Of a DNA stretch of 64,000 nt, positions 5,950 to 59,562 are shown piece by piece. The DNA lies in the IMG/VR virus record IMGVR_UViG_3300044634_004833, positions 64,001 to 128,000 of that record; one strand, 5' to 3'. Every line of letters starts with the position of its first letter. Positions within the stretch are counted from its first letter, which is position 1. The stretch is from a virus. The translations under genes and the position numbers were made by a program. The notes under the pieces are model-generated. The model was given only the letters and a program-made list of their open reading frames with translations, was not told where the DNA came from and made no database searches.

Positions 5950-5981
5950 CTGCGATAAAAATTTTCTAATTGCTAGTGGCC
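5950..5981 (+). promoter_or_regulatory. class II bipartite motif CTGCGATAA-N14-CTAGT
   Basis: Identical boxes and spacing at 34111 and 46626. Confidence 0.6.
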
Positions 5982-34110: not shown

Positions 34111-34138
34111 CTGCGATAAATTTATCGTGGCCCCTAGT
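34111..34138 (+). promoter_or_regulatory. class II motif CTGCGATAA-N14-CTAGT embedded in a hairpin
   Basis: Same boxes and spacing as 5950 and 46626. Confidence 0.55.
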
Positions 34139-45542: not shown

Positions 45543-46571
45543 ATGCTTATTGACAAGCCTTCATTACAATTTAAACAAAACAAACACACAACCTATGTTG
45601 GCGATTCTTTGCAATTTTTAAAAGCACTTCCAGAAGACCCTATTTTCAATCTTATCTTCACCTCCCCTCCGTACAATCTTGGCAAGACCTATGAAGATAA
45701 AGTTGAAATTGGAGAATATTTAAAGCTAATAATTCCTATTTTAGAAGAATCATTTAAAAGACTTGCTCCAGATGGCTCGTTGATTCTTCAGGTAGGCAAT
45801 TATATTACATCTGGAAAGACTAGAGTTCCACTTGACTACATATTCTTTCCATGCTTAAGCCAATTAGGATTTATATTTCAACAAAGAATCATATGGCATT
45901 ATCGACATGGCCTTCATGGTAAAAATAGATTTGATGGAAGACATGAAGCTGCTATGTGGTTCACCAAGAACGAAGACTATAAGTTCAATATTGATCCTGT
46001 AAGAGTTCCACAACTTTATCCCAATTACAAGAACAAAGGTGTTAAAACAGCAAACCCTATGGGTAAGAACCCTAGTGATACTTGGGAAATGGAAGCCCCA
46101 GAACTTATGACGGCAGATTTCATTGATAACATTCCTAATGTTAAGAAGAACCATTGTGAAAAAGTTGATCTTGTAAACCCTGTTTCAGCAGATGAAACCC
46201 ATCCTTGCCAGTTCCCTGTAGGTCTGGCAGAACGATTCATTTTGTCAATGACAGACAAAGGCGACGTTGTTTTCGACCCATTTGCAGGAGTTGGATCCTG
46301 TGGGGTTGCAGCAGTTATGAACGAAAGAATTTATCTTGGTTGCGACTTAATTGAACGATATGGACTAACTGCCGACCAAAGAATAGAAGATCATCTTCAA
46401 GGAAAGAGGAAGTACAGGCCTCATAACGCTAAGATTCCCGATCCTGCCAATAGTAGTTGTGGCCCTAATCCCAAACCCAAGAAATCAGACCATAAACAAG
46501 CGCAAAAGCCAACCTCTGCCTCGTTTGATTGGTCAAGCATCCAAATAAATTTGAACGATTTAGTCAAGTAG
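45543..46571 (+). CDS. site-specific DNA methyltransferase (N4-C/N6-A, beta class, M.BglII-like)
   Basis: TSPPYN, IIWHYRHG, HPCQFP, DPFAGVGS. Confidence 0.92.
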   Translation: MLIDKPSLQFKQNKHTTYVGDSLQFLKALPEDPIFNLIFTSPPYNLGKTYEDKVEIGEYLKLIIPILEESFKRLAPDGSLILQVGNYITSGKTRVPLDYIFFPCLSQLGFIFQQRIIWHYRHGLHGKNRFDGRHEAAMWFTKNEDYKFNIDPVRVPQLYPNYKNKGVKTANPMGKNPSDTWEMEAPELMTADFIDNIPNVKKNHCEKVDLVNPVSADETHPCQFPVGLAERFILSMTDKGDVVFDPFAGVGSCGVAAVMNERIYLGCDLIERYGLTADQRIEDHLQGKRKYRPHNAKIPDPANSSCGPNPKPKKSDHKQAQKPTSASFDWSSIQINLNDLVK

Positions 46572-46601
46572 GTTGTTTTTTTTGTAGTCCTCCCTAAAAC
46601 T
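46571..46601 (+). promoter_or_regulatory. class I promoter-like motif
   Basis: GGTTGT at 46571 and CCC-TAAAAC at 46595. Confidence 0.55.
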
Positions 46602-46625
46602 ATATTGTGGGCAGGGAAAGACCCC

Positions 46626-46657
46626 CTGCGATAAGTTTTTCAAATACTCTAGTGGCC
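46626..46657 (+). promoter_or_regulatory. class II motif CTGCGATAA-N14-CTAGTGGCC
   Basis: Both 9-nt boxes identical to the copy at 5950. Confidence 0.6.
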
Positions 46658-46695
46658 GGGAAGCCATTAACTAAAGTATGGAAGGAGGTGCAGCG

Positions 46696-47616
46696 ATGCA
46701 TTGTTTGCGTTTTCAACAAGGACATGGTGGTCGTTTCAGTGATCAGAGCTTGAGCAAGAAAAGCCCATCCTATATTGTTGATAAAGACTATGCGATTTGG
46801 CAGGATGACTGCCGTAAACTTTTGAAAGAATTGCCTCGTACTAAATCAATCAACATGGTGTGGAGTTCTCCTCCATATAATGTTGGCAAGTGCTATGAGA
46901 ACAATAAATCAATTAATGAATATCTAGACTTTCATAAAGAAGTGATTGATGAAATCATTCCTCGTATGGATGATGATGGAATTGTTTGCTGGCAAGTTGG
47001 TTTCTATGTGAATAATAAAACTGGCGAAATTGTGCCGCTTGAATATTTCTTCTATGACATGTTCAAGAAACATGGTTTGATTATGAAGAATCGAATCATT
47101 TGGCATTATCGACATGGTTTGACTTACGATAGTCGATTCGCTGGCAGACATGAAACAATTATGGTCATGACTAAAGGTAATCATAATTTTAATGTTGATC
47201 CTGTGCGTATGCCACAGATTTATAAGAATAAGAAGAAGAATGGAAAGTTGACCTGCAATCCTCTTGGTAAAAACCCTGGAGATGTTTGGGATAACATTCC
47301 TAATGTTAAGGCTAGTCACCCAGAGAAGATTGATCTGTATAATGGTCATACCAAGACCAAAGAGAAACATCCTTGCCAAACTCCAGTTGGTCTGGTTGAA
47401 AGGTGCTTGTTGAGCATGACTAAACCAAAAGACCTTATCTTGGACCCATTTGCAGGTACTGGAAGTATTGGTGTTGCTGCTGCAATTCATGGACGGCGAT
47501 TCTGGGGCTGTGAAATTTCAGCCAAATACGCTATCGCTGCCCAAGGTCGAATCAACCAAGCGTTGAGAGGGGAAGCTATGTGGCGACCCCATAACAAACC
47601 TATAAAATCTGTTTAA
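46696..47616 (+). CDS. site-specific DNA methyltransferase (beta class), paralogue of the upstream MTase
   Basis: SSPPYN, IIWHYRHG, CNPLGKNPGDVW, DPFAGTGS; SD AGGAGG. Confidence 0.92.
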   Translation: MHCLRFQQGHGGRFSDQSLSKKSPSYIVDKDYAIWQDDCRKLLKELPRTKSINMVWSSPPYNVGKCYENNKSINEYLDFHKEVIDEIIPRMDDDGIVCWQVGFYVNNKTGEIVPLEYFFYDMFKKHGLIMKNRIIWHYRHGLTYDSRFAGRHETIMVMTKGNHNFNVDPVRMPQIYKNKKKNGKLTCNPLGKNPGDVWDNIPNVKASHPEKIDLYNGHTKTKEKHPCQTPVGLVERCLLSMTKPKDLILDPFAGTGSIGVAAAIHGRRFWGCEISAKYAIAAQGRINQALRGEAMWRPHNKPIKSV

Positions 47617-47662
47617 AAGTTAGTTTTGGTTTTTTCATTCATTTAAGAAAGGATGGTGCGTT

Positions 47663-49423
47663 ATGTCTACTACTCACGAGTTGGATGATCCTATTATTTT
47701 GAGAGACACTTTTAATATTGTTGATGCTGCTACAAGGATGCGGGCTATTAAGGATGCTTTGAATGATTCTTCTAAACGAGCACAAGCTATGCCCGTTGGA
47801 AACGAAGATATTATCATAGATGGCAATCAGTATAGTTGGGAGCCAACTATGCTTGATTTTGATAATTTATTATTTGATGTTGCAAACTTCCGTACTCCGA
47901 TTGCTTGCCAAGAATTTGGTATAGATGATCCTTATAGTAAATGGGATAGCGATCAAATTGAAGACCAATTGATTGCGATGAAAGCATTATACGAATGTGA
48001 ATACAAGGAAGAAGGTCAACGAGTTCTTTTTGACAATTTGAAATCTCACAAAAAACTTATTCGCCCATTAGTCGTGGACGGAATGGGCGTTGTTCGTGAA
48101 GGCAACAAAAGACTTTTTGCAATTTTGGAGCTTCATAAAAGAGGTGTTTGGCATCGCAAACAAATCGAAGTTGTAGTCCTGCATGAAAAAATACATGTAG
48201 TAGGCGGTGGCACAGAGTTGCAACCTGTTACTGACAAAACTCTAATTCAGAAAGTAAAAGAGCATTATAGCAAGCATGATGATGGCAAGAGAGATCATCA
48301 TGACTTCGAAAAAGCAGAACAAACCTATCTCCGCTACAACAAGGTTAATCCTTTTGATTCCACTCCTCTTCCTGCGGAGTTGGCAAACAAATCTAAAGAA
48401 AATAGGAAAATTATTAAAGAAGAATTTTTGCTAGGCGAAGCCATCTCTAAATTTAGGGATAAAACTGCCAGTTTGAGAGATGCTGGTGGCAAATTGATTT
48501 TGCCTGTGCGAACTAGTGGTCACATGCAAATAGTTCAATTAATGAAAGATATTGTTGACGTTATTAAAGCAATTAAACGACAATATGCAAACAATCCTCT
48601 TCTAAACCAGTTTATTGATTATGCATATCAAGAAACAATCAGCTATATTATCATGTTTCATGACGTAAATCATCCAGATCATGATCGAACTAGGCAAGAT
48701 TGTTACAGAGCTACTCATGGAGAAGTATGCCACAAATACTTCCTGCACTGTTTTGATAATGTTTGGGTTGAATCGATACCAAATTTTTTAATGCTGAAGT
48801 CGCAAGCAGTTGCCCCATCGCAACCTGCAACGCCCACACAGAATATTCAAGCACCCCCACAGAATATTCAAGCACCCCCACAGAATATTCAGCCAGTTTC
48901 TTCGCCTCCTTCTGGGCCTTCAGGGGCACAAGGCAGATTGCAAAGGGGTGGCGGTACTACGCCTCCTCCAGTTGCAACCATGTCTGATTATGATTCTATG
49001 AAGTTTGATAGAGATTATGTAAAGCAGGTTAAGGCAGATAAGGATAGGAATGGCGATGACATTTGTGAAAAAATCCATGATAGTGTTGGCAAAGTAACAG
49101 AAAACATAGAGTCTTTGTTGATAACTAAGATTTCAGGAAAGACTCAACTTGTATTATCTCCTGAAAACACTGGCAAGATAGTCAAATTGTTGATGAACAA
49201 TATTTGTGATAGCGCAGGTGTCATATTTGAGATTGAAAAGCTAGCACCTCCGATGGTGCAAAACAAATTTGTGGTAGATATTTTTTCTAAAGTTGTCGAA
49301 CATGGATTGCGTTTGATTTATAGAGTAATGCAATCTAATGGACAAGCAACTAATGATGTTGAAAAAATAATTGAGCGACAGACATTGGATGCAGTTCGAA
49401 ATCATTTGTTTGGCAAGAAGTAA
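47663..49423 (+). CDS. ParB/sulfiredoxin-like N-terminal domain protein
   Basis: LFDVANFR...RPLVVDGMGVVREGNKRLFAI; Pro/Gln linker. Confidence 0.65.
   Translation: MSTTHELDDPIILRDTFNIVDAATRMRAIKDALNDSSKRAQAMPVGNEDIIIDGNQYSWEPTMLDFDNLLFDVANFRTPIACQEFGIDDPYSKWDSDQIEDQLIAMKALYECEYKEEGQRVLFDNLKSHKKLIRPLVVDGMGVVREGNKRLFAILELHKRGVWHRKQIEVVVLHEKIHVVGGGTELQPVTDKTLIQKVKEHYSKHDDGKRDHHDFEKAEQTYLRYNKVNPFDSTPLPAELANKSKENRKIIKEEFLLGEAISKFRDKTASLRDAGGKLILPVRTSGHMQIVQLMKDIVDVIKAIKRQYANNPLLNQFIDYAYQETISYIIMFHDVNHPDHDRTRQDCYRATHGEVCHKYFLHCFDNVWVESIPNFLMLKSQAVAPSQPATPTQNIQAPPQNIQAPPQNIQPVSSPPSGPSGAQGRLQRGGGTTPPPVATMSDYDSMKFDRDYVKQVKADKDRNGDDICEKIHDSVGKVTENIESLLITKISGKTQLVLSPENTGKIVKLLMNNICDSAGVIFEIEKLAPPMVQNKFVVDIFSKVVEHGLRLIYRVMQSNGQATNDVEKIIERQTLDAVRNHLFGKK
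48837..48891 (+). repeat. 21-bp tandem repeat x2.6 (QNIQAPP)
   Basis: cacagaatattcaagcacccc units. Confidence 0.85.
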
Positions 49424-49436
49424 TAGGAGTAAAATC

Positions 49437-51377
49437 ATGGATAAGGTTAAGATACAACTTTCTGTAAATAAGTCTTTTGTAGAAGTTTATTGTATTGGGA
49501 ATGGAGAGTCCTACAAAGAGATAATGAAATTTGTAGGAATTCAAACTCAGGCAATGCCATATATTGGCAAGTCTGTAATCTCCACCAAATTATCAGAAGA
49601 TCAATATAGAATAGTCTTTGAAAGAGAAGCATTCGTAAAGTTATGGATAAGTTTTAAAAATTGGTATGCCATTCATTCAGGATTGCATTTTCGTAATTAT
49701 GGCGCTCATTTTGCAGACATGGAGATGACTGAAGAAGACGAAGATATAATTGATAGCATAGTTGCAGGAAATAATTATTCTGATGTTAAATTAGAAAACT
49801 ATACTTCAAGGAAAGATGCCGAAAACGAGATAATAAAACAGGATTTGATTAAGTTTGGAGTTTCACTATCTGATGAAACAAATCTTGAGGAAGATCAGTA
49901 TGCTAGTGTTAAACAACACTTAAATGGCAGTATTTTTAATTGCAGTTTGGCTGGCTGTGGAAAAACTATAGTTTCATTATCATCGTATGTCCTTGAGACA
50001 AACTGGCAAGTTCCTTTGGTCGTATTCGGCTCAAAAAGCGCAATAGATTCATGGCAAGTTCAAGAATTGCCTAAGTGGGTTCCAGAAATAGCGAAAAATC
50101 ATACAGTTAGAATTACATCTAAGAACATGCACATGTTTGATATGCTTGTGCGTAATAAAAAAGTAGTTTTAATAAACTATGATATTATTCATAGGATTTT
50201 TAATAAGCTATCACATTATTTTAAAGATGTTCATCCATATTGTATTTTGGATGAAGCACACCGTTTGAAAAATATAGCATCTAGGAAGACTGGCGCTATG
50301 TTGCGCTTGGTCGGATCGGCTTACAAAGTTAGAATTGTTACTGCAACTCCGAATCCCAATGATATTGCTGGCGGGCCTCAAAAAGATTTAATTACTTTGT
50401 TGATGCTTGCACATCCTAATGCTCATATTTCGCAATTTCAAGATGAAGAGTATTCTAAGAATGAATTCAGTAGGTTGACAACATACTCAAACAACTTACC
50501 AGATGAAGTTGTTATGCCTACTTATTTTGCAGAAATGAGTGCTTTGCATAAAGATTTCTATCTTAGGCATATTGCCAGCAAGAATAACATTAGACGTATT
50601 CAGGGCTATCTTAGAAGCCAAGACCTCATTCGTGCAAGCCGAGCGCTTGCACATATAATGATGTACATAGCCTTTCCTTCTAGTCCAACGATATTGGCTA
50701 GACTAGAAAGAGATGATGATATTGATTCTGCAGAGATAGAAAGTCTTAGAAATTCCGGTCATGGAAGCAAGATTAATGCAACAGTAAACATTGCCAAAGA
50801 TATTCTTGATGAAGGCAAAAAAGTAATTATATGGACTTCATGGAATGATACTGCAAATTATTTGCAAAGTTTCTTTAGAGCAGAGAATGCAGTAATTTAT
50901 AATGGTTCTGTAAGGGACAAAACTGTCCCATTGAAGGAGTTTCATGAGAATCCCAACTGTAGATTGTTTGTTGGGAATATAGGTTGTGGAGAAGCTATTA
51001 GTTTGCACAGGGTTGCACAACACGCCATATTTAATGACTATAATTATAATTACTGCCATTACGTTCAAAGTCGTAATAGGCATCGTCGTAGGAATATGCC
51101 AGTAGGAACAGTTCCTACTACATATTTTATTCAAGCCACCTACAATGGCAATCCAGAGTGGACAGTTGACCACAACATATCTGAAAGGATTGGCTTGAAG
51201 CATCGGAATAGCACAGATTTATTTAGCAGAATGGCACCTGTTGACTATTCAAAACCAAAGGACGATGCTCAAAAACTTGCAGGAACAGACAACAAAAATG
51301 ATATTAGGACTAATATTGAAGGAGCTTTGCGTACCATGATGGATTTACATGAAGGCATGGACAACAATGACTCTTGA
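49437..51377 (+). CDS. SNF2-like SF2 helicase/ATPase
   Basis: AGCGKT, ILDEAHRLKN, TATP, KVIIWT, GEAISL, QSRNRHRR; ATG 49437 after AGGAG. Confidence 0.85.
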   Translation: MDKVKIQLSVNKSFVEVYCIGNGESYKEIMKFVGIQTQAMPYIGKSVISTKLSEDQYRIVFEREAFVKLWISFKNWYAIHSGLHFRNYGAHFADMEMTEEDEDIIDSIVAGNNYSDVKLENYTSRKDAENEIIKQDLIKFGVSLSDETNLEEDQYASVKQHLNGSIFNCSLAGCGKTIVSLSSYVLETNWQVPLVVFGSKSAIDSWQVQELPKWVPEIAKNHTVRITSKNMHMFDMLVRNKKVVLINYDIIHRIFNKLSHYFKDVHPYCILDEAHRLKNIASRKTGAMLRLVGSAYKVRIVTATPNPNDIAGGPQKDLITLLMLAHPNAHISQFQDEEYSKNEFSRLTTYSNNLPDEVVMPTYFAEMSALHKDFYLRHIASKNNIRRIQGYLRSQDLIRASRALAHIMMYIAFPSSPTILARLERDDDIDSAEIESLRNSGHGSKINATVNIAKDILDEGKKVIIWTSWNDTANYLQSFFRAENAVIYNGSVRDKTVPLKEFHENPNCRLFVGNIGCGEAISLHRVAQHAIFNDYNYNYCHYVQSRNRHRRRNMPVGTVPTTYFIQATYNGNPEWTVDHNISERIGLKHRNSTDLFSRMAPVDYSKPKDDAQKLAGTDNKNDIRTNIEGALRTMMDLHEGMDNNDS

Positions 51378-52311
51378 TCTAAATACAAGCACATTTAACA
51401 AGCTGTGCGATATTTGGAACATATTGTCTAAAAACAAAGGAATAGATGTAGACTATCTTTCACATCTCTGCAAATCTATTAGATATAACGCAGGTTATGT
51501 TTTAGATTTTGGAATCAAAAATGAATTATTTTTTATAGATGAAAATAATTTAGTTTCTTTGACAAAGGAACAAACTATTTTTCAATTTAGATTGCAATTT
51601 ATTATAAATTATATTAAAAATAATATTGACATTTTGCCATACAAGAAGTCATTGCTTCGAGGAAGAATCGCTTTCATAAATGAAATAGGAATTTACAACA
51701 ATGTTTATCAGATTATGAACGATGCAGGATTAATCAAAGAAAGCTCTCATGATGCTGCTGTGTTTTGGAAATTTATAGATGCTATTGCTAGAAATAAATT
51801 GAATTTACTTAAAGGGGACTATGGATTAATTGGCGAAGAGCTGTCTATTGAATTAGAGAACTCTTATTTAGATGCTGTAAGCTTGACAGTCAATGGACCC
51901 AAAAGAAAATGCAAATGGATATCTATAGACCGTCCTCATGCAGGATACGATATAAGAAGTTATTACATAGATTCTAAAAACCGTTATGTCAAAAAACGTA
52001 TTGAAGTAAAAACTTCAAGGGATATAATAAAAGGAAGGATGTTTATAACTTGGAATGAATGGCGCAAAATGCGTTATGAAACAAGTTGTGGCAAGCTTCC
52101 AATCAAATATGTTATTCACCTTTGGGATATACATGATTTGAAGCATCCAAGACGAGCTATTTTGTGTTATGATGACATAGCTCCTTGTGTGCCAAGATTA
52201 AGAAATGGGGGCAGGATTGAGTCATTTAACATCGATGTTCGTAGGTTCTACGATAACCACAGATTCCACTATATTTCCAATCAAATTACCACAACTTTAT
52301 CACAGCCATAG
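51349..52311 (+). CDS. DUF3883/NOV-C PD-(D/E)xK nuclease domain protein
   Basis: GLIGEELSIELE...AGYDIRSY...IEVKTS...FITWNEW. Confidence 0.82.
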   Translation: MKAWTTMTLDLNTSTFNKLCDIWNILSKNKGIDVDYLSHLCKSIRYNAGYVLDFGIKNELFFIDENNLVSLTKEQTIFQFRLQFIINYIKNNIDILPYKKSLLRGRIAFINEIGIYNNVYQIMNDAGLIKESSHDAAVFWKFIDAIARNKLNLLKGDYGLIGEELSIELENSYLDAVSLTVNGPKRKCKWISIDRPHAGYDIRSYYIDSKNRYVKKRIEVKTSRDIIKGRMFITWNEWRKMRYETSCGKLPIKYVIHLWDIHDLKHPRRAILCYDDIAPCVPRLRNGGRIESFNIDVRRFYDNHRFHYISNQITTTLSQP

Positions 52312-52717
52312 GTTTGCAGAGAACACAAACCAAGCATTTGTAAATAATGATTTTGCAAATTTATTTTTATTTTTGCCTAAGCCAGATATAGCAATTAAAA
52401 CAAAAGACTTCAGAAAAACAGTTTCCGAATTATTTGTTAAAAATCAATATAAACAAGTTGATAGATCTTGTTTTTTCATAAAAAATAATATTGGCATAAT
52501 ATTTCAAACTGGCAACAAAATGAATGCTGCAACTGATTTGCTATACCTTCAAAACGAATATGTTCTACAAAATATTTATGGAGCAATTTATTGCACCCCT
52601 TCGAAAAAATGGAGAGATATTTGGTCGGAAGGAGTTATAGAAGCTGATAATGTAATTGGCTTGTTAAATGATTGCAAAGCAGTAATAACTTTGCCCGTCA
52701 CACTATTCGAATTTTAA
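52205..52717 (+). CDS. BglII/BstYI-like restriction endonuclease fold, probably catalytically degenerate; start uncertain
   Basis: HSHRFA, FIKNNIGIIFQTGN...DLLYLQ, KKW..WSEG, ITLPVTLF. Confidence 0.5.
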   Translation: MGAGLSHLTSMFVGSTITTDSTIFPIKLPQLYHSHRFAENTNQAFVNNDFANLFLFLPKPDIAIKTKDFRKTVSELFVKNQYKQVDRSCFFIKNNIGIIFQTGNKMNAATDLLYLQNEYVLQNIYGAIYCTPSKKWRDIWSEGVIEADNVIGLLNDCKAVITLPVTLFEF

Positions 52718-55234
52718 ATCGTTTTTAACTCTTTTCACAGTTGCTCCAGCCCAATTTATGTCTGGCGCTAACTCTTGGACTTTTGCTGGATCAATTTTTG
52801 CGACAGTATTTGAGCCTAGAGCATTGAATACTTTTTTCAAATTAGTTGATATAGCAGTTTGATCTCCTGATTTTTCTGCTTCTGTTTCCATTTGTTTAAG
52901 AAATTTAGCAACAAGCTCGTTGATTACATTTTCATCCTTTGTTGCCCACCACTCAGGACTTATAGCAAAAATTTCATTCCAATGCCTACCTGTAAGCTGC
53001 ATTACCAAATCTTCATCAGTAATATTGTTCATGTTTTCCCAGCCAATGTATTTATCAAGATATTTTTCACTAATTGAATTATTAAGATAAAAACGATAGG
53101 TTTGCAACAAAGACCTGACTTCTGAAGAATTAAGAACTTTATTTTTCACTAAAGCATCAGTCAATTCTTTTCTTTTTTCTGCTTCTGAATAAATAAAGAA
53201 CCTCGTAAAATTAATATCAGGATAATATTTGGCGAAATTGGTCATAAACCAAATTTGGAATTCGTATCTGTTTTTTATGCTCAATAAGTTGCTGACTTCC
53301 CACTCATCAAATTTCTTAAATTTTTCAGCACCTATAATTTTTGTTAATTCATTTAAGTTTTTATTTGGAGCATGAATTAGCATGAATGCAATATCACTAT
53401 TTGATAATTTTTCTATATTATCAGTAATTTGATTTGTATCAGAATTTAAGTTGTCTGAATTTATGATTGCTTGAATAAATTTCAAATAAACGTCAGGATC
53501 ATTTCCATTTTCCTGTAATAAATTTAAAGCTTCAAGTATTTTTATTAATACAGGACCTCTTTGTTCTGTTAATACTTTTAGTTTTTTAGGATCTTTTATC
53601 CATGTATCTAATTCTTCCTGAAAAGCATGTATATTTTGTATAATTCCAAGTTTTTTAAATGTTTCTGGGTCTAATTTTTCGTATAACTTATTAATAAGAA
53701 CCCCTCCATGTATTACCATATTAATTATTTTATCATTTAAATAAGTGCTTCCTAAATTTTTAAAAACATCAGGATCATTTTTTAGTTTATCAAACAATTC
53801 ATCGCCTATGATTTCAAATCGTTCATTCATATCTTCTGGTGTTCTAGATCGCTTAATAAATTGAATTGCATCAGATAGATTTACTTTTCTTTTTATATTT
53901 TTAATCATATTCCATATTTCTTCTTTTTTATTATATTCTCCCATTGATATTATGAAGCTTTCTATAAAATTATCATAATTCCATCCTATATCAGAATATG
54001 ATAAATGGGTCAAATAATCTTTCAAATGTTTTTCATTTTTTGAAAGGAATAAAGCTTTCGACTTTGAATTAATTTTTTTGCCAATAATAAAAATGGCTTT
54101 CTCAGCATCAGATAGTTCGTCAAATTTATTGTCAGCAAGATTGTCTGTTAATTTTAGGAAATAGTACATTCTTTTGCAAATTCCATCAATTAAATCTTTT
54201 TCTTGTTCACAATCTTTTTTTACAGCATTTAAATTTTGTTGTTCAATTTGATCTTTTACAGATGTTTCAAATTTACTCAACGGCTCTGCTTTGAATTCAG
54301 AAACATTAACACCCATAGATTTAAGATAATCCAAATATTCTGGTAAATTTTGGTAGCCGTTTACTGAAAAAGAAATATTATCTTTTGTTGCGCCTCTAGC
54401 ATTTCTTCTGTCTACCCATTCAGAATATTCACCGGCAGTAGCAACTCCCGGGTTCACATATCTTGCTGGGTCGTTTGAGCTTTTGTTAAAATCAAATATA
54501 AAGTATTGAGTTTGTCCGTATTCATGTCTATAGTTAAAGTAATATTTTACACTTTCTGAACTACTAATGCACCATCTTTGGCCTTTGCCCATAATCCTAC
54601 ATTTAAATGGATCATCTCCTTTAAAAACCCATATGTTTTTGCCTTTTGAAACTAAATCAGCATTATTTTGTAGTTCTAAAAAAGCTGGATTTTGCAGTCC
54701 TTTTTCTGTTTTAAAATCTCCGTCATTATTTGGTTGGTGTTGTATACCATGTAATATTGAAATAAATTGATTCATATCATTGTAATTTGATATAATCTGA
54801 TCCTCAAATCGTATTTCAGGCTTGTTTTTGAAAAGTAACTCAATTTGATTGTTAGATATAAAACTTCTTAACAGAACCATCATTTCATCAATTGCTTGTT
54901 GAAATAATACGCTATTGTTTTCTTTTTCTGCGAAGTAAACAGCCGTTTTATATTCTGGTATGGTTATTTGTTTGTTTTTCAAATTATCATAAAGAACTTT
55001 TAAAACAGGTAACTTTGGCTCTTCTATTTCAATTTCTTTTTTCTTAATGAACTTGCTTTGAAGAATTGAAAAGGCTGATTTTTTATCGTGTGGAGTTGGG
55101 GCGGCTTCAAGCTCTGCAATAGCTTTCTCGACTTCTTCTTTGTTTGCTGGCCACTTAGCTTGCAAAAGTATATTTTTTACATTTGGATCAAGAGTTTCCC
55201 ATAGCTTGATCCATTTTTTGAAGGTTATATTCAT
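52703..55234 (-). CDS. large phage protein, paralogue of 26507..29308
   Basis: ITFKKW start; KCRIMGKGQRWCISSS...YFIFD...RYVNPG...EWVD. Confidence 0.75.
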   Translation of the reverse strand: MNITFKKWIKLWETLDPNVKNILLQAKWPANKEEVEKAIAELEAAPTPHDKKSAFSILQSKFIKKKEIEIEEPKLPVLKVLYDNLKNKQITIPEYKTAVYFAEKENNSVLFQQAIDEMMVLLRSFISNNQIELLFKNKPEIRFEDQIISNYNDMNQFISILHGIQHQPNNDGDFKTEKGLQNPAFLELQNNADLVSKGKNIWVFKGDDPFKCRIMGKGQRWCISSSESVKYYFNYRHEYGQTQYFIFDFNKSSNDPARYVNPGVATAGEYSEWVDRRNARGATKDNISFSVNGYQNLPEYLDYLKSMGVNVSEFKAEPLSKFETSVKDQIEQQNLNAVKKDCEQEKDLIDGICKRMYYFLKLTDNLADNKFDELSDAEKAIFIIGKKINSKSKALFLSKNEKHLKDYLTHLSYSDIGWNYDNFIESFIISMGEYNKKEEIWNMIKNIKRKVNLSDAIQFIKRSRTPEDMNERFEIIGDELFDKLKNDPDVFKNLGSTYLNDKIINMVIHGGVLINKLYEKLDPETFKKLGIIQNIHAFQEELDTWIKDPKKLKVLTEQRGPVLIKILEALNLLQENGNDPDVYLKFIQAIINSDNLNSDTNQITDNIEKLSNSDIAFMLIHAPNKNLNELTKIIGAEKFKKFDEWEVSNLLSIKNRYEFQIWFMTNFAKYYPDINFTRFFIYSEAEKRKELTDALVKNKVLNSSEVRSLLQTYRFYLNNSISEKYLDKYIGWENMNNITDEDLVMQLTGRHWNEIFAISPEWWATKDENVINELVAKFLKQMETEAEKSGDQTAISTNLKKVFNALGSNTVAKIDPAKVQELAPDINWAGATVKRVKNDLKFE

Positions 55235-55305: not shown

Positions 55306-58300
55306 ATGGACTACAAATTTGAATTGCCAAAACAAGCACCTAATGTTGATTTGGATCCTATTAAAATTAATGGTAAATCATTACAAATTACTGGATACAT
55401 AGAAACTGTAGATCCATTTGGAAATGTAAAAATATCAGTGCCCAAAGACGGCCAAAGATTTAACGATACACCACAGAATTTGGCGGATGTAATGGGAGCA
55501 ATAAATCCCACTCCAACACATTATATTCTTTATAATGGTACTCAAGGTTTGACAGATTATCAGCTTCAATTAGGAACAGAACAATCTTATGCATATGATC
55601 CTGTAATTACATATACAACAGATGGGGATTATAAAGTAAAAGTTATAACATGTGCAGATGCAGAAGGAATTAATAAAATAATATATAATAGTTCATTAGT
55701 ACCAGAAAAGTGTTTGTTTGATGCTCTGTCAGATGTAGTAGATTTAGGATACAAATTAAGACTTATGAGTCCAGATTATGCTTCTGCAGGAGCAACAACC
55801 GAACTTATATGTGAATATTTTCTTTTTAGAGGATATTCTTTTTCTGTTAAAAGTACAGTTGACGTATGGATTACCACTAGTCAGTTTGCCAGTTCTTGGA
55901 TTTATCCTGGCCCCAACCCAAATAAACCTACAAGATTTTTAAACAAACCAAGTGTTTTGCCACAAGGCGCAACAACTACTACTACCACAACAACTACTTC
56001 TACCACTACTACTACAACATCGGCTCCAATTTCAACCTCAACTACAACGACAGCGGCTCCGGGTGCTGGTGGCAGACTGCCTCTTCCCGGCAATTCTTTG
56101 TCTTATAACGGTGTCACTCTTACAGGCTCTGGTTCAGGTAGTAATTATGCAGCACCATTTACCTATTGTTCAGTATCCATGCCTGCTAATTCTATGATTC
56201 TTGGAAATGCTGGAAGTGGTACTTATACGCTTACATTCTCTTTGCCTGTAAACAATATTCAAATTTTAGGATCAGGTCAAAATTTTGGAGAAACCTTTAC
56301 ATTTTCAGTCAATAATGGCACATTAACCACAAGTCTAATGCCAGGAATTGGTTGCAATGCCACTTTAACTGGAAATACTGTAGGTAATTCCAGCGTTGGT
56401 TCTTTTGGAGCAACGCTAGCATCAACATCAGATTACACATCTTTGTCTATAACATTCCCCGGCGGTGGCGGCGGCACATTGTTCTCAGTTATAGAAAGCT
56501 CTGTTGTTTCTGGAGCAACCACAACTACACCTGTTCCAACAACCACAACAACTACTACACCTGCGCCTACTACAACTACACCTGTTCCAACAACCACTAC
56601 CACTCCAGCACCTGCAGTTTCTACTGGATTGCCATTAATTGGAACCTCTTCTGTTATAAATGGTGTTACATTAACGGCATCTGGCGTTGGAACTTCTTAT
56701 TCAAGCCCTTGGTCAAGCTGCTCTCCTCCTATCTCAATTACTGCACCTTGCTTGTTCTTGGGAAGAGCCATTGGAACATATACTGTTTCATTTGATTCAT
56801 TACAGAATGATATAGTAATTTTTGCAAACGCTAGTGACACAGGAGAAAGCTTTGACTTTGGAGTAGACTCAGGAACACTAAGCATTAGTGTTGTTCAAAG
56901 CTGCGGAGTAACAGTATCTGGAACAACAGTTTCTAGCGTTGGAGCAAATGTTGGATGGGTCATAAGGCTCACAAGCACAACTCCATACTCTCAAATAACA
57001 ATATATTCTGGTGCTGTAACATCTGGAAGCCTTTTTGGAATTTATGCAAGCTCAATAGTTCCAGGTGCAGTAGTAACAACTACAACGCCAATTCCAACAA
57101 CTACTACAACCACAACTACTACAACCACTCCCGAACCAACAACAACCACCACTACTACTACACCTGCTCCAACGACCACTACAACCACAACTACTACAAC
57201 TACAACCACTACAACTACAACCACTACAACAACTACAACTACGCCCGCACCAGACCAAGCATATTCATTGTTTGGATGGGGAGAAGGTAACCTAGGAAAT
57301 AATCGTTCTGCTGGAGCCCAATCGCCAACTCAAACAGTTTCTGGCGGAACAAATTGGGGAACACCTCCAAAATGCTCTTATGCACAACACTATGCCATAT
57401 TGAAGAAGGATGCAACACTCTGGGCATGGGGCACTAATAGTGCAGGAGAACTTGGTAATAACACAACAACAAATAGAAGTTCTCCTATTCAAATTGCTGC
57501 CCCCGCAGGAGTTACATGGAATGCTGTAAATATGGGATATCAAACCACATTTGTTATAGACACAACCGGCGCATTGTGGGGATGGGGCAAAAATAACTTT
57601 GGGCAGTTGGGCATTAGCACTACAATAAATGTAAGCTCTCCTGTTCAGATCAGCGCCGATACAACATGGAGTTCTATTGTAGCAGGCAATTTTGCTACTT
57701 ATGCAATTAAGAAAAATGGAACTTTATGGGCATTTGGATACAATGTACAAGGACAAATCGGAGATGGAACAATAGTAAACAAAAGCAGCCCAGTTCAAAT
57801 TGGCTCTGACACCACATGGTCACAAATAACTGCTGGTCAAGGACACGCATTATCAATTAAATCAGATGGAACTTTGTGGGCATGGGGAGCAGGGTCTAAC
57901 GGTTCCCTTGGAAATGGTACAATAACACATAGAAGTAGCCCCATTCAAATAGGAACTGATAATACATGGTCTTTAATACAATCAACTGGATTTGGCGGAG
58001 CAGCTTTGAAAACAGATGGAAGCCTATGGTGCTGGGGCGGAAATACAAATGGCGCTCTAGGAGATGGAACAACAGTTCACAGAAGTAGCCCAATTCAAAT
58101 AGGATCTGATACAAATTGGACAGATATCGCTGGAGGACAGTATTCTGTAGTTGCACTAAAATCAGACAAATCCTTATGGCATTGGGGCTATGGTGGAGCA
58201 ATGGGCATAGGTGTAAACTCTGCCAGAAGCTCTCCAGTTCAGACATTAAAAGCAGATACCTTATGGATTTCAATAGGCAGCAGCTTAAGAAACTTCTTCT

Positions 58301-59562
58301 GCATTAGAGGTGTTACAACAACAACGACAACTACAACACCAGCACCTACAACTACAACACCAGCACCTACAACTACAACACCAGCACCTACAACGACAAC
58401 GACAACACCAGCACCTACAACGACAACACCAGCACCTACAACGACAACACCAGCACCTACAACTACAACACCAGCACCTACAACTACAACACCAGCACCT
58501 ACAACCACTCCTGCTCCAGCAGGAGGAAGTGGATTGTGGGCATGGGGATTCAACTCTTATGGAATGCTTGGAGATGGGACAGTTGAAAGCAGAAGTAGCC
58601 CAGTGCAAATGTTGACATCATCATTTAATGATATTGCAGATGGCGGATACGCTCAACATGGTGCTGCTGTAAAAGCAGATGGAACTCTTTGGATATGGGG
58701 CAACAATAGCTACGGACAGCTAGGGGATGGAACAACTGTGGCTAAAAGTTCGCCTACTCAAGTTGGAACTGAAAATACTTGGGATGAAGTAGTCAAGGGA
58801 CTCAACACCGCTGCTTCTAAAACAGATGGAAGTTTATGGGGCTGGGGAGGAAACGCATATGGACAACTTGGCATAGGAACAAAAATAAATGTTAGCTCTC
58901 CTGTTCAAATTATGGGCGCATCATCTGGATATTATGATATTACAATATCTGCTGCAAATGCAGCCGTAATAAAGAAAGATGGGACTTTATGGGCATGGGG
59001 ACCTAACAATGATGGAATTTTGGGCACTAATGATAAAATACACAGATCGTCTCCAGTACAAATAGGTTCTGATACAACATGGAGAAATGTTACTTTTACA
59101 GCCTACTCTATGTGTGCAATTAAGTCTGATGGCACTTTATGGAGCTGTGGAAACGGATACAGCGGAGTAACAGGTTTAAATAATACTTTAAACTATAGCT
59201 CCCCAACTCAAATAGGAACAGATAATACATGGAGCTATGTTTTTGCAACCTACTTATTAGTACACGCAATAAAGAACGATGGTTCTCTATGGGTTTGGGG
59301 ACAAGGAGGAGCATCAGAATCTGGAATTACTCGTAGCAGTCCAACTCAGGTAATAACAGGAAAATCATTCAGCAAAGTTGTTTCTGGTATGGCTACCTCT
59401 GCTGGATTGACTACTGATGGAAAACTATGGGCATGGGGACAAAATGCATATGGCTCAATGGGAGAGGCCGCATCTAGTGCCAGTCCAGTAATGTTATTCT
59501 CCGATACCACATGGTCTGATATTTCAGCAATCGCTGCTGGATTCCACGCCACAAAAGCATAG
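55306..59562 (+). CDS. large RCC1/BLIP-II repeat protein with Thr/Pro-rich linkers (putative fibre/adhesin)
   Basis: Two blocks of DGTLWAWG.N..G.LG....RSSPVQ repeats; poly-T/TTTPAP linkers; two beta-rich paralogous domains. Confidence 0.85.
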   Translation: MDYKFELPKQAPNVDLDPIKINGKSLQITGYIETVDPFGNVKISVPKDGQRFNDTPQNLADVMGAINPTPTHYILYNGTQGLTDYQLQLGTEQSYAYDPVITYTTDGDYKVKVITCADAEGINKIIYNSSLVPEKCLFDALSDVVDLGYKLRLMSPDYASAGATTELICEYFLFRGYSFSVKSTVDVWITTSQFASSWIYPGPNPNKPTRFLNKPSVLPQGATTTTTTTTTSTTTTTTSAPISTSTTTTAAPGAGGRLPLPGNSLSYNGVTLTGSGSGSNYAAPFTYCSVSMPANSMILGNAGSGTYTLTFSLPVNNIQILGSGQNFGETFTFSVNNGTLTTSLMPGIGCNATLTGNTVGNSSVGSFGATLASTSDYTSLSITFPGGGGGTLFSVIESSVVSGATTTTPVPTTTTTTTPAPTTTTPVPTTTTTPAPAVSTGLPLIGTSSVINGVTLTASGVGTSYSSPWSSCSPPISITAPCLFLGRAIGTYTVSFDSLQNDIVIFANASDTGESFDFGVDSGTLSISVVQSCGVTVSGTTVSSVGANVGWVIRLTSTTPYSQITIYSGAVTSGSLFGIYASSIVPGAVVTTTTPIPTTTTTTTTTTTPEPTTTTTTTTPAPTTTTTTTTTTTTTTTTTTTTTTTTPAPDQAYSLFGWGEGNLGNNRSAGAQSPTQTVSGGTNWGTPPKCSYAQHYAILKKDATLWAWGTNSAGELGNNTTTNRSSPIQIAAPAGVTWNAVNMGYQTTFVIDTTGALWGWGKNNFGQLGISTTINVSSPVQISADTTWSSIVAGNFATYAIKKNGTLWAFGYNVQGQIGDGTIVNKSSPVQIGSDTTWSQITAGQGHALSIKSDGTLWAWGAGSNGSLGNGTITHRSSPIQIGTDNTWSLIQSTGFGGAALKTDGSLWCWGGNTNGALGDGTTVHRSSPIQIGSDTNWTDIAGGQYSVVALKSDKSLWHWGYGGAMGIGVNSARSSPVQTLKADTLWISIGSSLRNFFCIRGVTTTTTTTTPAPTTTTPAPTTTTPAPTTTTTTPAPTTTTPAPTTTTPAPTTTTPAPTTTTPAPTTTPAPAGGSGLWAWGFNSYGMLGDGTVESRSSPVQMLTSSFNDIADGGYAQHGAAVKADGTLWIWGNNSYGQLGDGTTVAKSSPTQVGTENTWDEVVKGLNTAASKTDGSLWGWGGNAYGQLGIGTKINVSSPVQIMGASSGYYDITISAANAAVIKKDGTLWAWGPNNDGILGTNDKIHRSSPVQIGSDTTWRNVTFTAYSMCAIKSDGTLWSCGNGYSGVTGLNNTLNYSSPTQIGTDNTWSYVFATYLLVHAIKNDGSLWVWGQGGASESGITRSSPTQVITGKSFSKVVSGMATSAGLTTDGKLWAWGQNAYGSMGEAASSASPVMLFSDTTWSDISAIAAGFHATKA
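58327..58506 (+). repeat. imperfect 21-bp tandem repeat (TTTPAPT)
   Basis: acaactacaacaccagcacct units; related Thr tracts near 55970-56075, 56515-56615 and 57075-57250. Confidence 0.85.

What the first reader, a model, noticed from the sequence alone, without database searches (positions are those of the whole stretch)
45543..52717. Six-gene defence-like operon on a phage: 2 x MTase, ParB-like, SNF2 helicase, DUF3883 nuclease, BglII-like protein
Seen: co-oriented, closely packed or overlapping genes for two beta-class amino-MTases, a ParB/Srx-like protein, a SNF2-type ATPase, a DUF3883 PD-(D/E)xK nuclease and a BglII-like fold protein. The block uses CGA/CGT Arg codons noticeably more often than flanking genes (impression by eye). 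Established: each of these domains is enriched in bacterial defence islands. The combination does not match the named systems I know: DISARM needs DUF1998/PLD, BREX needs PglZ/BrxC, Zorya needs membrane ZorAB. Inference: a possibly undescribed RM-coupled system, with methylation marking self and a ParB/SNF2/nuclease effector, captured by the phage for interference with competing phages or for host DNA degradation.
Basis: partly seen in the sequence, partly recalled or inferred. Interest (0 to 1): 0.85.

Follow-up and report, generated by a model that had tools for sequence, protein, structure and literature searches.

The report
AbiR-like methylase-gated nuclease cassette on phage
A very large phage carries a six-gene block (two DNA methylases, a ParB-like protein, an SNF2 motor, a DUF3883 nuclease and a probably nuclease-dead BglII-like protein). 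It is a phage-borne variant of the poorly understood bacterial anti-phage system AbiR, not a wholly new kind of system.

Summary
Six co-oriented genes lie at 45543-52717 of a 155-kb IMG/VR phage record. They are two paralogous SPPY beta-class MTases, a 586-aa ParB-like protein (X), a divergent SNF2 ATPase, a DUF3883 nuclease with an intact D-E-K triad, and a weak BglII-like protein whose catalytic Glu aligns to Ile. The codon bias is real (Arg CGN 42% against 20%, p=6e-6).

The block is syntenic in related phage contigs. It is rearranged in a distant lineage, where X-SNF2-DUF3883 is followed by a Dam-like and an SPPY MTase.

X-SNF2 is also a conserved core in bacteria and plasmids. It was found in 9 of 399 genomes sampled from one phylum and in 68 PLSDB plasmids. 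All 9 genome hits have the SNF2 gene directly downstream. The nuclease is either DUF3883 as a separate gene or a PLD domain fused to SNF2. A DNA MTase of varying class lies within two genes in 8 of 9 loci.

Loci with a sigma-like protein, ParB-like X and PLD-SNF2 beside a C5 MTase and a Sau3AI-like enzyme match the published description of lactococcal AbiR, which is toxic without its methylase.

PADLOC finds no system match. This scan reached the same AbiR-like reading on at least 23 other genomes. New here are the huge-phage carriage, the twin MTases and the probably nuclease-dead BglII-like protein.

The parts
45543..46571 (+). M1: beta-class amino-MTase, 342 aa. SPPY motif IV at residue 41 and FAGVG motif I at residue 247. 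Probably N4-cytosine specific.
   Evidence: Pfam PF01555 E=2.9e-44. Motifs and SD-preceded ATG. 45% identical to M2. Relatives are called at 342 aa.
46611..46652 (+). M1-M2 spacer. A GC hairpin (46611-46629) overlaps a phage-specific promoter-like motif, CTGCGATAA-N14-CTAG (46626-46652).
   Evidence: The motif occurs 14 times in the 155-kb record, all on the + strand and each 15-60 nt upstream of an SD and ATG. None was expected by chance. Hairpin.
46696..47616 (+). M2: paralogous beta-class amino-MTase, 306 aa from the SD-preceded ATG (the ORF opens at 46678). SPPY plus FAGTG.
   Evidence: Pfam PF01555 E=4.9e-48. Motifs. The best solved relative is M.MboIIA, E=6.7e-26.
47663..49423 (+). X: 586 aa. 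N-terminal ParB/Srx-like domain (about residues 45-215; N75-x-R77 and VDGMGVVREGNKRLF at 138-152), a helical region to about 345, a low-complexity Pro/Gln linker and a C-terminal helical domain. Counterpart of AbiRii.
   Evidence: No hit in Pfam, PHROGs, PADLOC, NCBIfam or PDB sequences. Only 4 relatives in a search of 5.8 billion proteins and 4 clusters in 1.84 billion representatives. Motifs. hhalign to the bacterial X of L051, P=6e-4 over 144 columns covering both motifs. phmmer chain win_X-L008_X 8e-8, L008_X-L070_X 1e-11, L070_X-L051_X 7e-20. Match to pNOB8 ParB-N 5k5d, Z 5.2 over 99 residues.
49437..51377 (+). SNF2-family ATPase, 646 aa. N-terminal region of about 165 aa of unknown fold. 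Walker A GCGKT at 173, DEAH at 272, TATP at 302, motif VI QSRNRHRR at 544. Counterpart of the Snf2 part of AbiRiii.
   Evidence: Pfam SNF2-rel_dom E=2.1e-14, phrog_62 E=3.3e-31, weak PADLOC ZorD/DrmD/DpdE/PbeA hits. Motifs. phmmer to the plasmid X-linked helicase L070, 6e-25.
51349..52311 (+). DUF3883/NOV_C PD-(D/E)xK nuclease, 320 aa, with catalytic D201, E219, K221. It overlaps the SNF2 gene by 29 nt. Presumed cleavage subunit.
   Evidence: Pfam PF13020 E=1.6e-8. Invariant residues in alignment A7. The same overlapping SNF2/NOV_C gene pair occurs in L008, L013, L051, L061, L065 and Javan191.
52205..52717 (+). BglII-like protein, up to 170 aa with an uncertain start. The restriction-endonuclease-like core is plausible, but the family's catalytic Glu aligns to Ile99. 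Possibly a non-cleaving site reader.
   Evidence: Pfam PF09195 E=0.024 over residues 82-168. 'Weak' PF09195 hits are on record for homologues. An HMM built from 7 genuine family members aligns D86....FIKNNIGI-I99-F-Q101 to D....vKdrvaiEvQ. The AF2 model has pLDDT 49 and only weak PD-(D/E)xK matches.

Best explanation
The block is a phage-borne member of the AbiR-like family of methylation-gated ParB-SNF2-nuclease systems.

Shown:
- X (ParB-like) and the SNF2 ATPase form a conserved two-gene core.
- The core occurs in huge phages, a streptococcal prophage record, plasmids of Lactobacillales and bacterial chromosomes.
- The core comes with a nuclease, either DUF3883 as a separate overlapping gene or a PLD domain fused to SNF2.
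- The core nearly always has a DNA methyltransferase of variable class beside it.

Inferred mechanism:
- M1 and M2, paralogous SPPY enzymes that are probably m4C-forming, mark the phage genome at a short site. The site may be asymmetric, with one enzyme acting on each strand.
- The ParB-like protein loads on or senses DNA.
- The SNF2 motor translocates, and the DUF3883 nuclease cuts DNA that lacks the mark.
- The BglII-like protein lacks the family's catalytic Glu and may serve as a sequence or methylation reader.
- Packaged phage DNA arrives already methylated. The system would therefore spare the phage and attack the unmethylated host chromosome or co-infecting phages, or act as an addiction module that keeps the MTases in place.
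For: 1. Linkage inside phages. The same six genes in the same order lie on related contigs from different samples. A 35%-identical relative keeps X-SNF2-NOV_C-BglII-like. A distant lineage (L008-L010) has X-SNF2-NOV_C followed by a Dam-like MTase and an SPPY MTase, so the MTases moved but stayed linked.

2. Bacterial counterparts.
- L051 and L061: C5 MTase-X-SNF2-NOV_C beside an AspBHI-like REase.
- L065: X-SNF2-NOV_C-SPPY MTase.
- X hit 9 of 399 sampled genomes. All 9 have SNF2 directly downstream, and 8 of 9 have a DNA MTase within two genes (C5, D12 or beta class).

3. Plasmids and a prophage record.
- 68 PLSDB plasmids carry X.
- The Enterococcus plasmids examined carry sigma-like protein-X-SNF2.
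- A L. lactis plasmid carries type III Mod-Res-ParB-helicase with overlapping genes.
- Streptococcus phage Javan191 carries X-SNF2-311 aa ORF plus a C5 MTase.

4. Homology network by phmmer and hhalign.

5. Match to AbiR. The published AbiR has AbiRi (sigma70-like, about 820 aa), AbiRii (ParB-like, superposed on 5K5D) and AbiRiii (N-terminal endonuclease plus Snf2). It requires the LlaKR2I methylase, is toxic without it and blocks phage DNA replication (PMC13064643). L063 reproduces this layout, including a Sau3AI-like enzyme and a C5 MTase.

6. Catalytic motifs of SNF2 and DUF3883 are intact.

7. Composition differs from the rest of the phage, which is consistent with acquisition.
Against: - No experiment bears on this phage.
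- I could not compare directly with the pKR223 AbiR sequences. The link to AbiR rests on a published description and on transitive homology.
- No AbiRi homologue was found in or beside the block.
- The nuclease is of a different fold from the PLD-type domain seen in the AbiR-architecture loci, and it is a separate gene.
- The ParB fold of X is supported only by motifs and weak matches: hhalign against canonical ParB gives P=0.015 and probability 3%, and the AF2 model has pLDDT 60.6.
- The Enterococcus plasmid copies examined show no adjacent MTase in the annotation, so the methylase link is not universal.
- The base specificity of M1 and M2 is unsettled. SPPY suggests m4C, but the nearest solved relative is the adenine MTase M.MboIIA.
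- What the phage uses the system for is pure inference.
Confidence: 0.62

Rival explanations
1. Counter-defence module. M1 and M2 methylate the phage genome to evade host restriction. The SNF2 motor and ParB-like protein make methylation fast and processive on entering or replicating DNA, as proposed for the DarB-type methylase-SNF2 dyad of phages and plasmids. The nucleases are accessory or unrelated.
For: SNF2 ATPases are widely coupled to MTases, and ParB domains also occur, in polyvalent proteins of phages and conjugative elements. DarB protects P1 DNA from type I restriction (PMC5512222). The SNF2 hits phrog_62 and the MTases hit phrog_67, which are long phage profiles. A promoter-like motif shared with a gene array elsewhere in the phage precedes M2. 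ParB-like partners of phage DNA-modifying enzymes are known (PMC13229309, title and abstract only).
Against: The SNF2 gene is translationally overlapped by a nuclease gene with an intact D-E-K triad in every lineage. The homologous core sits in bacterial chromosomes next to R-M genes, and in AbiR it is an anti-phage system that is toxic without its methylase. The MTases are separate small enzymes, not DarB-like fusions.
Confidence: 0.17
2. Two independent modules that merely sit together. Orphan MTases protect the phage, and a separate X-SNF2-DUF3883 effector is gated by something other than these MTases. The BglII-like gene is a decayed remnant of a type II R-M system.
For: A hairpin and a promoter-like motif separate M1 from M2. 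Some plasmid X-SNF2 loci show no adjacent MTase. The BglII-like protein lacks the catalytic Glu. L013 carries SNF2-NOV_C without X or an MTase.
Against: An MTase accompanies the core in independent rearrangements and with four MTase classes. All beta-class MTases found with the core share the SPPY motif. The BglII-like ORF is kept open and 73-98% identical across the clade, which does not look like decay.
Confidence: 0.12
3. Phage DNA-metabolism genes. The SNF2 remodeller and the PD-(D/E)xK nuclease work in replication-fork or recombination processing, like the SNF2/VRR-NUC pairs of many phages. ParB-like X works in genome organisation or partition.
For: The neighbourhood holds endonuclease VII, an RNase T-like exonuclease and a UvrD-like helicase. 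SNF2 helicases are common in phage replication modules (my own knowledge).
Against: The phage already has a canonical ParB_N protein elsewhere. The block has atypical composition. Its relatives are sporadic (9 of 399 genomes), lie on mobile elements and sit beside R-M genes. That is the pattern of a conflict system, not of core replication.
Confidence: 0.07

Closest known systems
AbiR of Lactococcus lactis plasmid pKR223 (AbiRi/a, AbiRii/b, AbiRiii/c plus the LlaKR2I methylase; Twomey 2000 and Yang 2006, as summarised in PMC13064643)
   Same: A ParB-like protein lies directly upstream of an Snf2-family ATPase that is coupled to a nuclease. The system is functionally tied to a DNA methylase and occurs on mobile DNA. 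X and SNF2 of the window are linked by significant pairwise matches to loci that reproduce the AbiR layout.
   Different: No sigma70-like AbiRi was found. The nuclease is a separate DUF3883 PD-(D/E)xK protein, not an N-terminal domain of the motor. The block encodes two MTases of its own, SPPY beta class rather than C5. It has an extra BglII-like protein. It is carried by a very large phage, not a dairy plasmid. No direct sequence comparison with pKR223 was possible.
MTase-ParB-SNF2-DUF3883 cassettes of bacteria
   Same: Same four protein families in the same order, with overlapping SNF2/DUF3883 genes. L065 even has an SPPY beta-class MTase related to M1 at 1e-27.
   Different: The phage version has two tandem paralogous MTases upstream and a BglII-like gene downstream. 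X carries a long C-terminal extension (586 aa against 400-456 aa). Its sequences are very divergent, with 18-20% identity to the bacterial X and SNF2.
Hma / Type-1 BREX-related system (HmaA SNF2-DUF3883 fusion, DUF1156 MTase, DUF499 ATPase; PMC11232893, PMC12839542)
   Same: An SNF2 motor plus a DUF3883/NOV_C nuclease act as effector, with an MTase thought to protect self. HmaA's NOV_C nickase activity is needed for defence.
   Different: Motor and nuclease are separate proteins here. The MTase belongs to another family (PF01555). There is no DUF499 ATPase, and a ParB-like protein is present instead. No HmaA model was among the PADLOC hits for the window's proteins; only the bacterial NOV_C of L051 touches it weakly, at 1.9e-4.
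Type III restriction-modification (Mod/Res)
   Same: A beta-class MTase combined with an SF2 ATPase and a PD-(D/E)xK nuclease. One lactococcal plasmid fuses a type III Mod-Res pair and the ParB-helicase pair into one overlapping operon.
   Different: The motor is SNF2-type and is split from its nuclease. There are two MTases with SPPY rather than DPPY, plus the ParB-like and BglII-like proteins.
DarB-type methylase-SNF2 dyad and ParB domains of polyvalent phage and plasmid proteins (PMC5512222)
   Same: The same three domain types (MTase, SNF2, ParB) occur on a phage.
   Different: Those are giant fused, virion- or conjugation-delivered anti-restriction proteins without a dedicated nuclease partner. 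Here the genes are separate and a conserved active-looking nuclease is coupled to the motor.

Membership tests
AbiR (lactococcal, three genes plus methylase) | ParB-fold protein (AbiRii) encoded directly upstream of the Snf2 gene | tested here: met
   X lies 13 nt upstream of SNF2. The N-x-R and GN[KR]R motifs are present. hhalign to bacterial X gives P=6e-4 and the phmmer chain links them. Plasmid homologues are named ParB N-terminal domain proteins. AbiRii and X both find 5K5D. The fold evidence for X itself is weak.
AbiR (lactococcal, three genes plus methylase) | Snf2 ATPase carrying an N-terminal endonuclease domain (AbiRiii) | tested here: not met
   The SNF2 core is present, but residues 1-170 have no family hit. 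The PLD domain seen in L062 and L067 is absent. The nuclease is the separate DUF3883 gene.
AbiR (lactococcal, three genes plus methylase) | Sigma70-like protein of about 820 aa (AbiRi) | tested here: not met
   phmmer and hhalign of the plasmid and chromosomal sigma-like proteins against the 843-aa neighbour, the C-terminus of X and the L008 neighbours gave nothing (P 0.3-0.8). 'Not found with these queries' is the accurate wording.
AbiR (lactococcal, three genes plus methylase) | Activity depends on a DNA methylase, and the system is toxic without it | not testable with these tools
   Only the genomic association can be shown. MTases are adjacent here and in 8 of 9 bacterial loci.
AbiR (lactococcal, three genes plus methylase) | Sequence homology to the pKR223 AbiRa/b/c proteins themselves | not tested
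Twomey 2000 and Yang 2006 are not held.
Hma / Type-1 BR system | SNF2 helicase fused to a C-terminal NOV_C REase, a DUF1156 MTase and a DUF499 ATPase | tested here: not met
   SNF2 and NOV_C are separate genes. The MTases are PF01555. No DUF499 or DUF1156 was found in any of the six proteins. No HmaA model was among the PADLOC hits.
DISARM | DrmA helicase, DrmB (DUF1998) and DrmC (PLD), with DrmD/DrmMI in class 1 | tested here: not met
   Only weak DrmD-type matches to the SNF2 core (E 1.9e-6, and NCBIfam 22 bits against a cut-off of 950). No DrmA, DrmB or DrmC.
BREX / Zorya | PglZ and BrxC for BREX; ZorA and ZorB for Zorya | tested here: not met
   No such PADLOC or Pfam hits in the block or its two neighbours. 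The only hit is ZorD-like to the SNF2 core, E 1.3e-7.
BglII-family type II restriction endonuclease (PF09195) | Score above the family threshold, and the catalytic Asp and Glu-x-Gln (D...E-V-Q in genuine members) | tested here: not met
   14.8 bits against a cut-off of 26. In the alignment to an HMM of 7 genuine members, the Glu position is Ile99, invariant in 4 homologues. The Asp aligns only with a 4-residue insertion. Gln101 is kept. The alignment is low-scoring, so fold membership stays open.
ParB/Srx superfamily | ParB_N fold with the Arg-rich GxxR box | tested here: inconclusive
   PF02195 does not hit X. hhalign against 15 genuine ParB proteins gives P=0.015 and probability 3%, but it is aligned on the GERR box. 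VIA-align to 5k5d gives Z 5.2 over 99 residues. Atlas clusters containing ParB_N appear.
Type III R-M | Mod (beta-class MTase) plus Res (one polypeptide with an SF2 helicase and a C-terminal PD-(D/E)xK domain) | tested here: not met
   A beta-class MTase is present, but with SPPY. The ATPase is SNF2-type and split from the nuclease.

The most novel reading that the evidence does not exclude
The phage uses the cassette offensively. Its genome arrives pre-methylated by M1/M2. The nuclease-dead BglII-like protein reads the unmethylated target site and licenses the ParB-like/SNF2/DUF3883 machine to shred the host chromosome or rival phage DNA. That would make it a virus-encoded, ATP-driven restriction system with a separate 'dead restriction enzyme' as its specificity subunit. 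It would also give a tractable handle on the unsolved mechanism of AbiR.
Probability: 0.2. Interest if true: 0.75.

Novelty: new variant of a known kind. Interest (0 to 1): 0.5.

Why it matters
AbiR was named in 2000 and is still not understood mechanistically. PADLOC v2 gave no hit for the ParB-like component and no system-level match for its relatives. Yet the ParB-SNF2 core turns up in phages, plasmids and chromosomes, next to methylases of four classes.

A compact phage version with its own methylases, a separate nuclease and a candidate site reader gives a clean set of parts for testing how methylation gates an SNF2-driven nuclease. It also shows that very large phages carry this kind of system, presumably for conflict with the host or with other phages.

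The finding is a useful extension of a known family, not a new principle.

Tried and rejected
- Structure of X (AF2 on 5 sequences, pLDDT 60.6). Foldseek against PDB gave nothing at E<=0.001. The wide VIA-align list was dominated by a helical hairpin.
- Structure of the BglII-like protein (pLDDT 49.4). No significant match; only Z 3.5-4.3 to McrC, Hjc, VRR-NUC and the Hna nuclease domain.
- PDB sequence and profile searches for X and the BglII-like protein gave no hits, even at E<=10.
- Complex prediction on SNF2 plus DUF3883 returned no verdict. It counts neither for nor against binding.
- Pattern scans of IMG/VR with the X, SNF2 and NOV_C alignments found no relatives. Megablast and tblastn of the block, X and P0015 against INPHARED found none either.
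- The sigma-70 promoter scan was uninformative: 31 sites against 31.1 expected.
- The search for an AbiRi homologue in the 843-aa neighbour, the X C-terminus and the L008 neighbours was negative.
- My first hhalign against ParB used wrongly framed sequences and was discarded.
- A complete type II BglII-like R-M reading was rejected because the catalytic Glu is missing.
- Hma, DISARM, BREX, Zorya and Dpd membership were each rejected on missing core genes.
- Genomes flagged unpublished (G344, G121, G227, G019, G002) were not used for any claim.

Full report
**What and where.** The window is bases 64001-128000 of a 154,941-bp IMG/VR virus record that CheckV rates 31% complete, so it comes from a very large phage. 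The reported stretch holds six co-oriented ORFs. With starts refined from relatives and ribosome-binding sites, they are:

| Gene | Coordinates | Note |
|---|---|---|
| M1 | 45543-46571 | |
| M2 | 46696-47616 | |
| X | 47663-49423 | |
| SNF2 | 49437-51377 | |
| DUF3883 | 51349-52311 | overlaps SNF2 by 29 nt |
| BglII-like | 52205-52717 | start uncertain |

**The individual proteins.**
- M1 and M2. Both are PF01555 enzymes (E=2.9e-44 and 4.9e-48) and are 45% identical paralogues. SPPY (motif IV) precedes FxGxG (motif I), which is the beta-class order. From general knowledge of this class, SPPY is typical of N4-cytosine enzymes and DPPY of adenine enzymes. The nearest solved relative, however, is the adenine MTase M.MboIIA, so I treat m4C as probable, not shown.
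- SNF2. The protein has a clear SNF2 N-lobe and intact Walker A, DEAH, TATP and motif VI.
- DUF3883. The protein matches NOV_C (E=1.6e-8). D201, E219, K221, N236 and E237 are invariant across five homologues down to 21% identity.
- X. It has no hit in Pfam, PHROGs, PADLOC, NCBIfam or the PDB. It is very rare: 4 relatives in a word-indexed search of 5.8 billion proteins, and 4 clusters in an exhaustive profile search of 1.84 billion representatives.
- ParB evidence for X. The conserved N-terminal part carries N-x-R and VDGxGxVxEGN[KR]RL. Structure and profile evidence for a ParB/Srx fold is individually weak but all points the same way: pNOB8 ParB-N 5k5d at Z 5.2 over 99 residues, an hhalign alignment on the GERR box of genuine ParB proteins at P=0.015, and Atlas clusters containing ParB_N.
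- BglII-like protein. It scores only E=0.024 against PF09195, though homologues carry precomputed 'weak' hits. I built an HMM from seven genuine family members found in published genomes. The alignment keeps the scaffold (K-x-x-[IV]-x-[IV]-x-x-Q-x-G and a downstream D-L), but the catalytic Glu falls on Ile99, which is invariant in the clade. The Asp aligns only with a four-residue insertion. Another first-reader note on this window said the same (e1-5706316), and I confirm it, with the caveat that the alignment scores low.

**Composition.** CGN codons make up 42% of Arg codons in the block against 20% in 26 flanking ORFs (p=5.8e-6). GC3 and GC are also higher.

**Is the block a unit?** Within the phage lineage it is syntenic on contigs from several independent samples. 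A 35%-identical relative keeps X-SNF2-NOV_C-BglII-like. The most distant X relative found by the exhaustive search (P0015, E=9.7e-6) lies in a different context. There, X-SNF2-NOV_C is followed, not preceded, by two MTases: one of the Dam PF05869 family and one SPPY beta-class. A rearrangement and an MTase family swap with linkage retained argue for functional coupling.

**Beyond phages.** A pattern scan with the NOV_C alignment found an Erysipelotrichaceae chromosome with C5 MTase-X(456 aa, DGNRR)-SNF2-NOV_C next to an AspBHI-like enzyme. Its X aligns to the phage X profile over both motifs (P=6e-4).

I then searched 399 genomes of that phylum with this bacterial X.
- Nine genomes hit, and in all nine an SNF2 gene follows directly.
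- The nuclease is NOV_C as a separate gene in L051, L061 and L065.
- In L062 and L067, a PLD domain is fused to the N-terminus of an SNF2 of about 850 aa (L062: Pfam PLDc_2; both: PADLOC PbeA N-terminus, down to 1e-54). L063, L066 and L068 have similarly long SNF2 proteins. The domain was not confirmed there, and L066 showed no PLDc_2 hit at E<=0.001.
- A DNA MTase lies within two genes in eight of the nine loci: C5 in six, D12 in one and SPPY beta-class in one.
- Type II REase-like genes lie next to the MTase in L063, L066 and L067.

X also occurs on 68 PLSDB plasmids, 52 of them from Enterococcus.
- The two Enterococcus plasmids examined carry a sigma-like HTH protein of 815-864 aa, then X, then SNF2.
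- A L. lactis conjugative plasmid has type III Mod-Res-'ParB N-terminal domain protein'-helicase with overlapping genes.
- The Streptococcus phage Javan191 record carries X-SNF2-311 aa ORF with a convergent C5 MTase.
- A small HK97-like phage contig has SNF2-NOV_C next to a ParE/Phd pair.
- phmmer ties the families together: win_X-L008_X 8e-8, L008_X-L070_X 1e-11, L070_X-L051_X 7e-20, win_SNF2-L070 helicase 6e-25.

**What it is.** A sigma-like protein, a ParB-like protein and a nuclease-Snf2 fusion beside a C5 methylase and a Sau3AI-type enzyme (L063) is the published description of lactococcal AbiR. AbiRi resembles sigma70 and is about 820 aa. AbiRii resembles ParB and superposes on 5K5D. AbiRiii has an N-terminal endonuclease and a C-terminal Snf2. 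The system needs the LlaKR2I methylase, is toxic without it and interferes with phage DNA replication (PMC13064643).

The phage block therefore belongs to an AbiR-like family, in the variant where the nuclease is a separate DUF3883 protein. PADLOC v2 gives only type II MTase hits and weak helicase-core or DUF3883 matches (ZorD, DrmD, DpdE, PbeA, PDC-S36, PD-T4-1, TmtA). It finds nothing for X.

After reaching AbiR from the plasmid loci, I queried the scan's notes. The same AbiR-like reading had been reached for MTase-ParB-SNF2-DUF3883 cassettes on at least 23 other genomes. That is agreement among AI notes, not independent evidence.

**How it probably works (inference).**
- By analogy with AbiR's methylase dependence, and with the SNF2-DUF3883 effector HmaA (PMC11232893) and the related Type-1 BR systems (PMC12839542), M1/M2 mark self DNA.
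- The ParB-like protein loads on or senses DNA, the SNF2 motor translocates, and DUF3883 cuts unmarked DNA.
- Two paralogous MTases suggest an asymmetric site with one enzyme per strand.
- The BglII-like protein, lacking the catalytic Glu, may be a site reader.
- On a phage, packaged DNA is already methylated. The targets would then be the host chromosome or co-infecting phages, or the cassette may simply be addictive.

A phage-specific promoter-like motif, CTGCGATAA-N14-YTAG, precedes M2. It occurs 14 times in the record, all on the + strand and all just upstream of genes. This ties M2 and, presumably, the closely packed genes downstream of it to a defined transcription class.

**Rivals.**
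- A DarB-like anti-restriction reading (PMC5512222) explains MTase plus SNF2 plus ParB. It does not explain the conserved, overlapping, active-looking nuclease or the bacterial R-M contexts.
- An 'independent neighbours' reading is weakened by the repeated re-association with different MTases.
- A replication or repair reading fits the neighbourhood (endonuclease VII, RNase T-like, UvrD-like). It does not fit the sporadic, mobile, R-M-linked distribution.

**Limits.**
- No direct comparison with the pKR223 sequences was possible.
- No AbiRi homologue was found.
- The fold models are poor.
- The complex prediction gave no verdict.
- The Enterococcus plasmid loci examined show no adjacent MTase.

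**Verdict.** This is a new variant (phage-borne, twin SPPY MTases, separate DUF3883, BglII-like reader candidate) of a known but mechanistically unsolved kind of system.

Noticed in passing
window 5950-5976, 34111-34137 and 46626-46652; 11 more copies downstream in the record (G000:C1:141904-153789): The motif CTGCGATAA-N14-YTAG occurs 14 times in the 155-kb record. All copies are on the + strand and each lies 15-60 nt upstream of an SD and ATG. None was expected in shuffles. It looks like a phage-specific promoter class.
   Followed up: partly
G000:C1:63377-63511 (just left of the window; locus L011): The phage also encodes a canonical ParB_N protein (PF02195, 27.6 bits, in a 440-aa frame). 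X is therefore a second, divergent ParB-like protein.
   Followed up: no
L004/L012/L050 (CAYVOK010000001.1, 271,226 bp): A 271-kb contig syntenic with this phage is deposited in a MAG labelled Acidimicrobiaceae. It probably is a mis-binned huge-phage contig. It has an insertion between endonuclease VII and M1 holding a prepilin-type N_methyl/SBP_bac_10 protein and a nucleoside deoxyribosyltransferase-like gene.
   Followed up: no
L071 (L. lactis plasmid pIBB109_AgSa_3, NZ_CP087603.1: 36069-44083): A type III Mod, a Res, a ParB N-terminal domain protein and a DEAD/DEAH helicase form one operon. The last three genes overlap. The AbiR-like ParB-SNF2 pair appears grafted onto a type III R-M system.
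   Followed up: partly
L013 5577-9121: A small HK97-like phage contig carries overlapping SNF2 and NOV_C genes plus a DUF2971 protein next to a ParE/Phd toxin-antitoxin pair. It has no ParB-like gene and no MTase.
   Followed up: no
L072 (Streptococcus phage Javan191, MK448700.1: 936-6607): A deposited prophage record carries X, an SNF2 helicase, an overlapping 311-aa ORF and a convergent C5 MTase at its very end. All but the helicase and the MTase are annotated hypothetical.
   Followed up: partly
window 55306-59562: A 1418-aa protein with strong PHROG 'regulator of chromosome condensation' (RCC1-repeat) matches (E=1e-82). Its GC is 0.42, well above the phage average.
   Followed up: no
window 52703-55234 (- strand): An 843-aa protein of no known family converges on the block and overlaps the end of the BglII-like ORF by 15 nt. 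It keeps this position in all related phage contigs. No similarity to AbiRi-like proteins was detected.
   Followed up: partly
L062 3614-4882: A DUF6996-DUF6997-DUF7226 protein lies beside a D12 adenine MTase directly downstream of a PLD-SNF2/ParB-like pair. It may be the partner endonuclease of that MTase.
   Followed up: no
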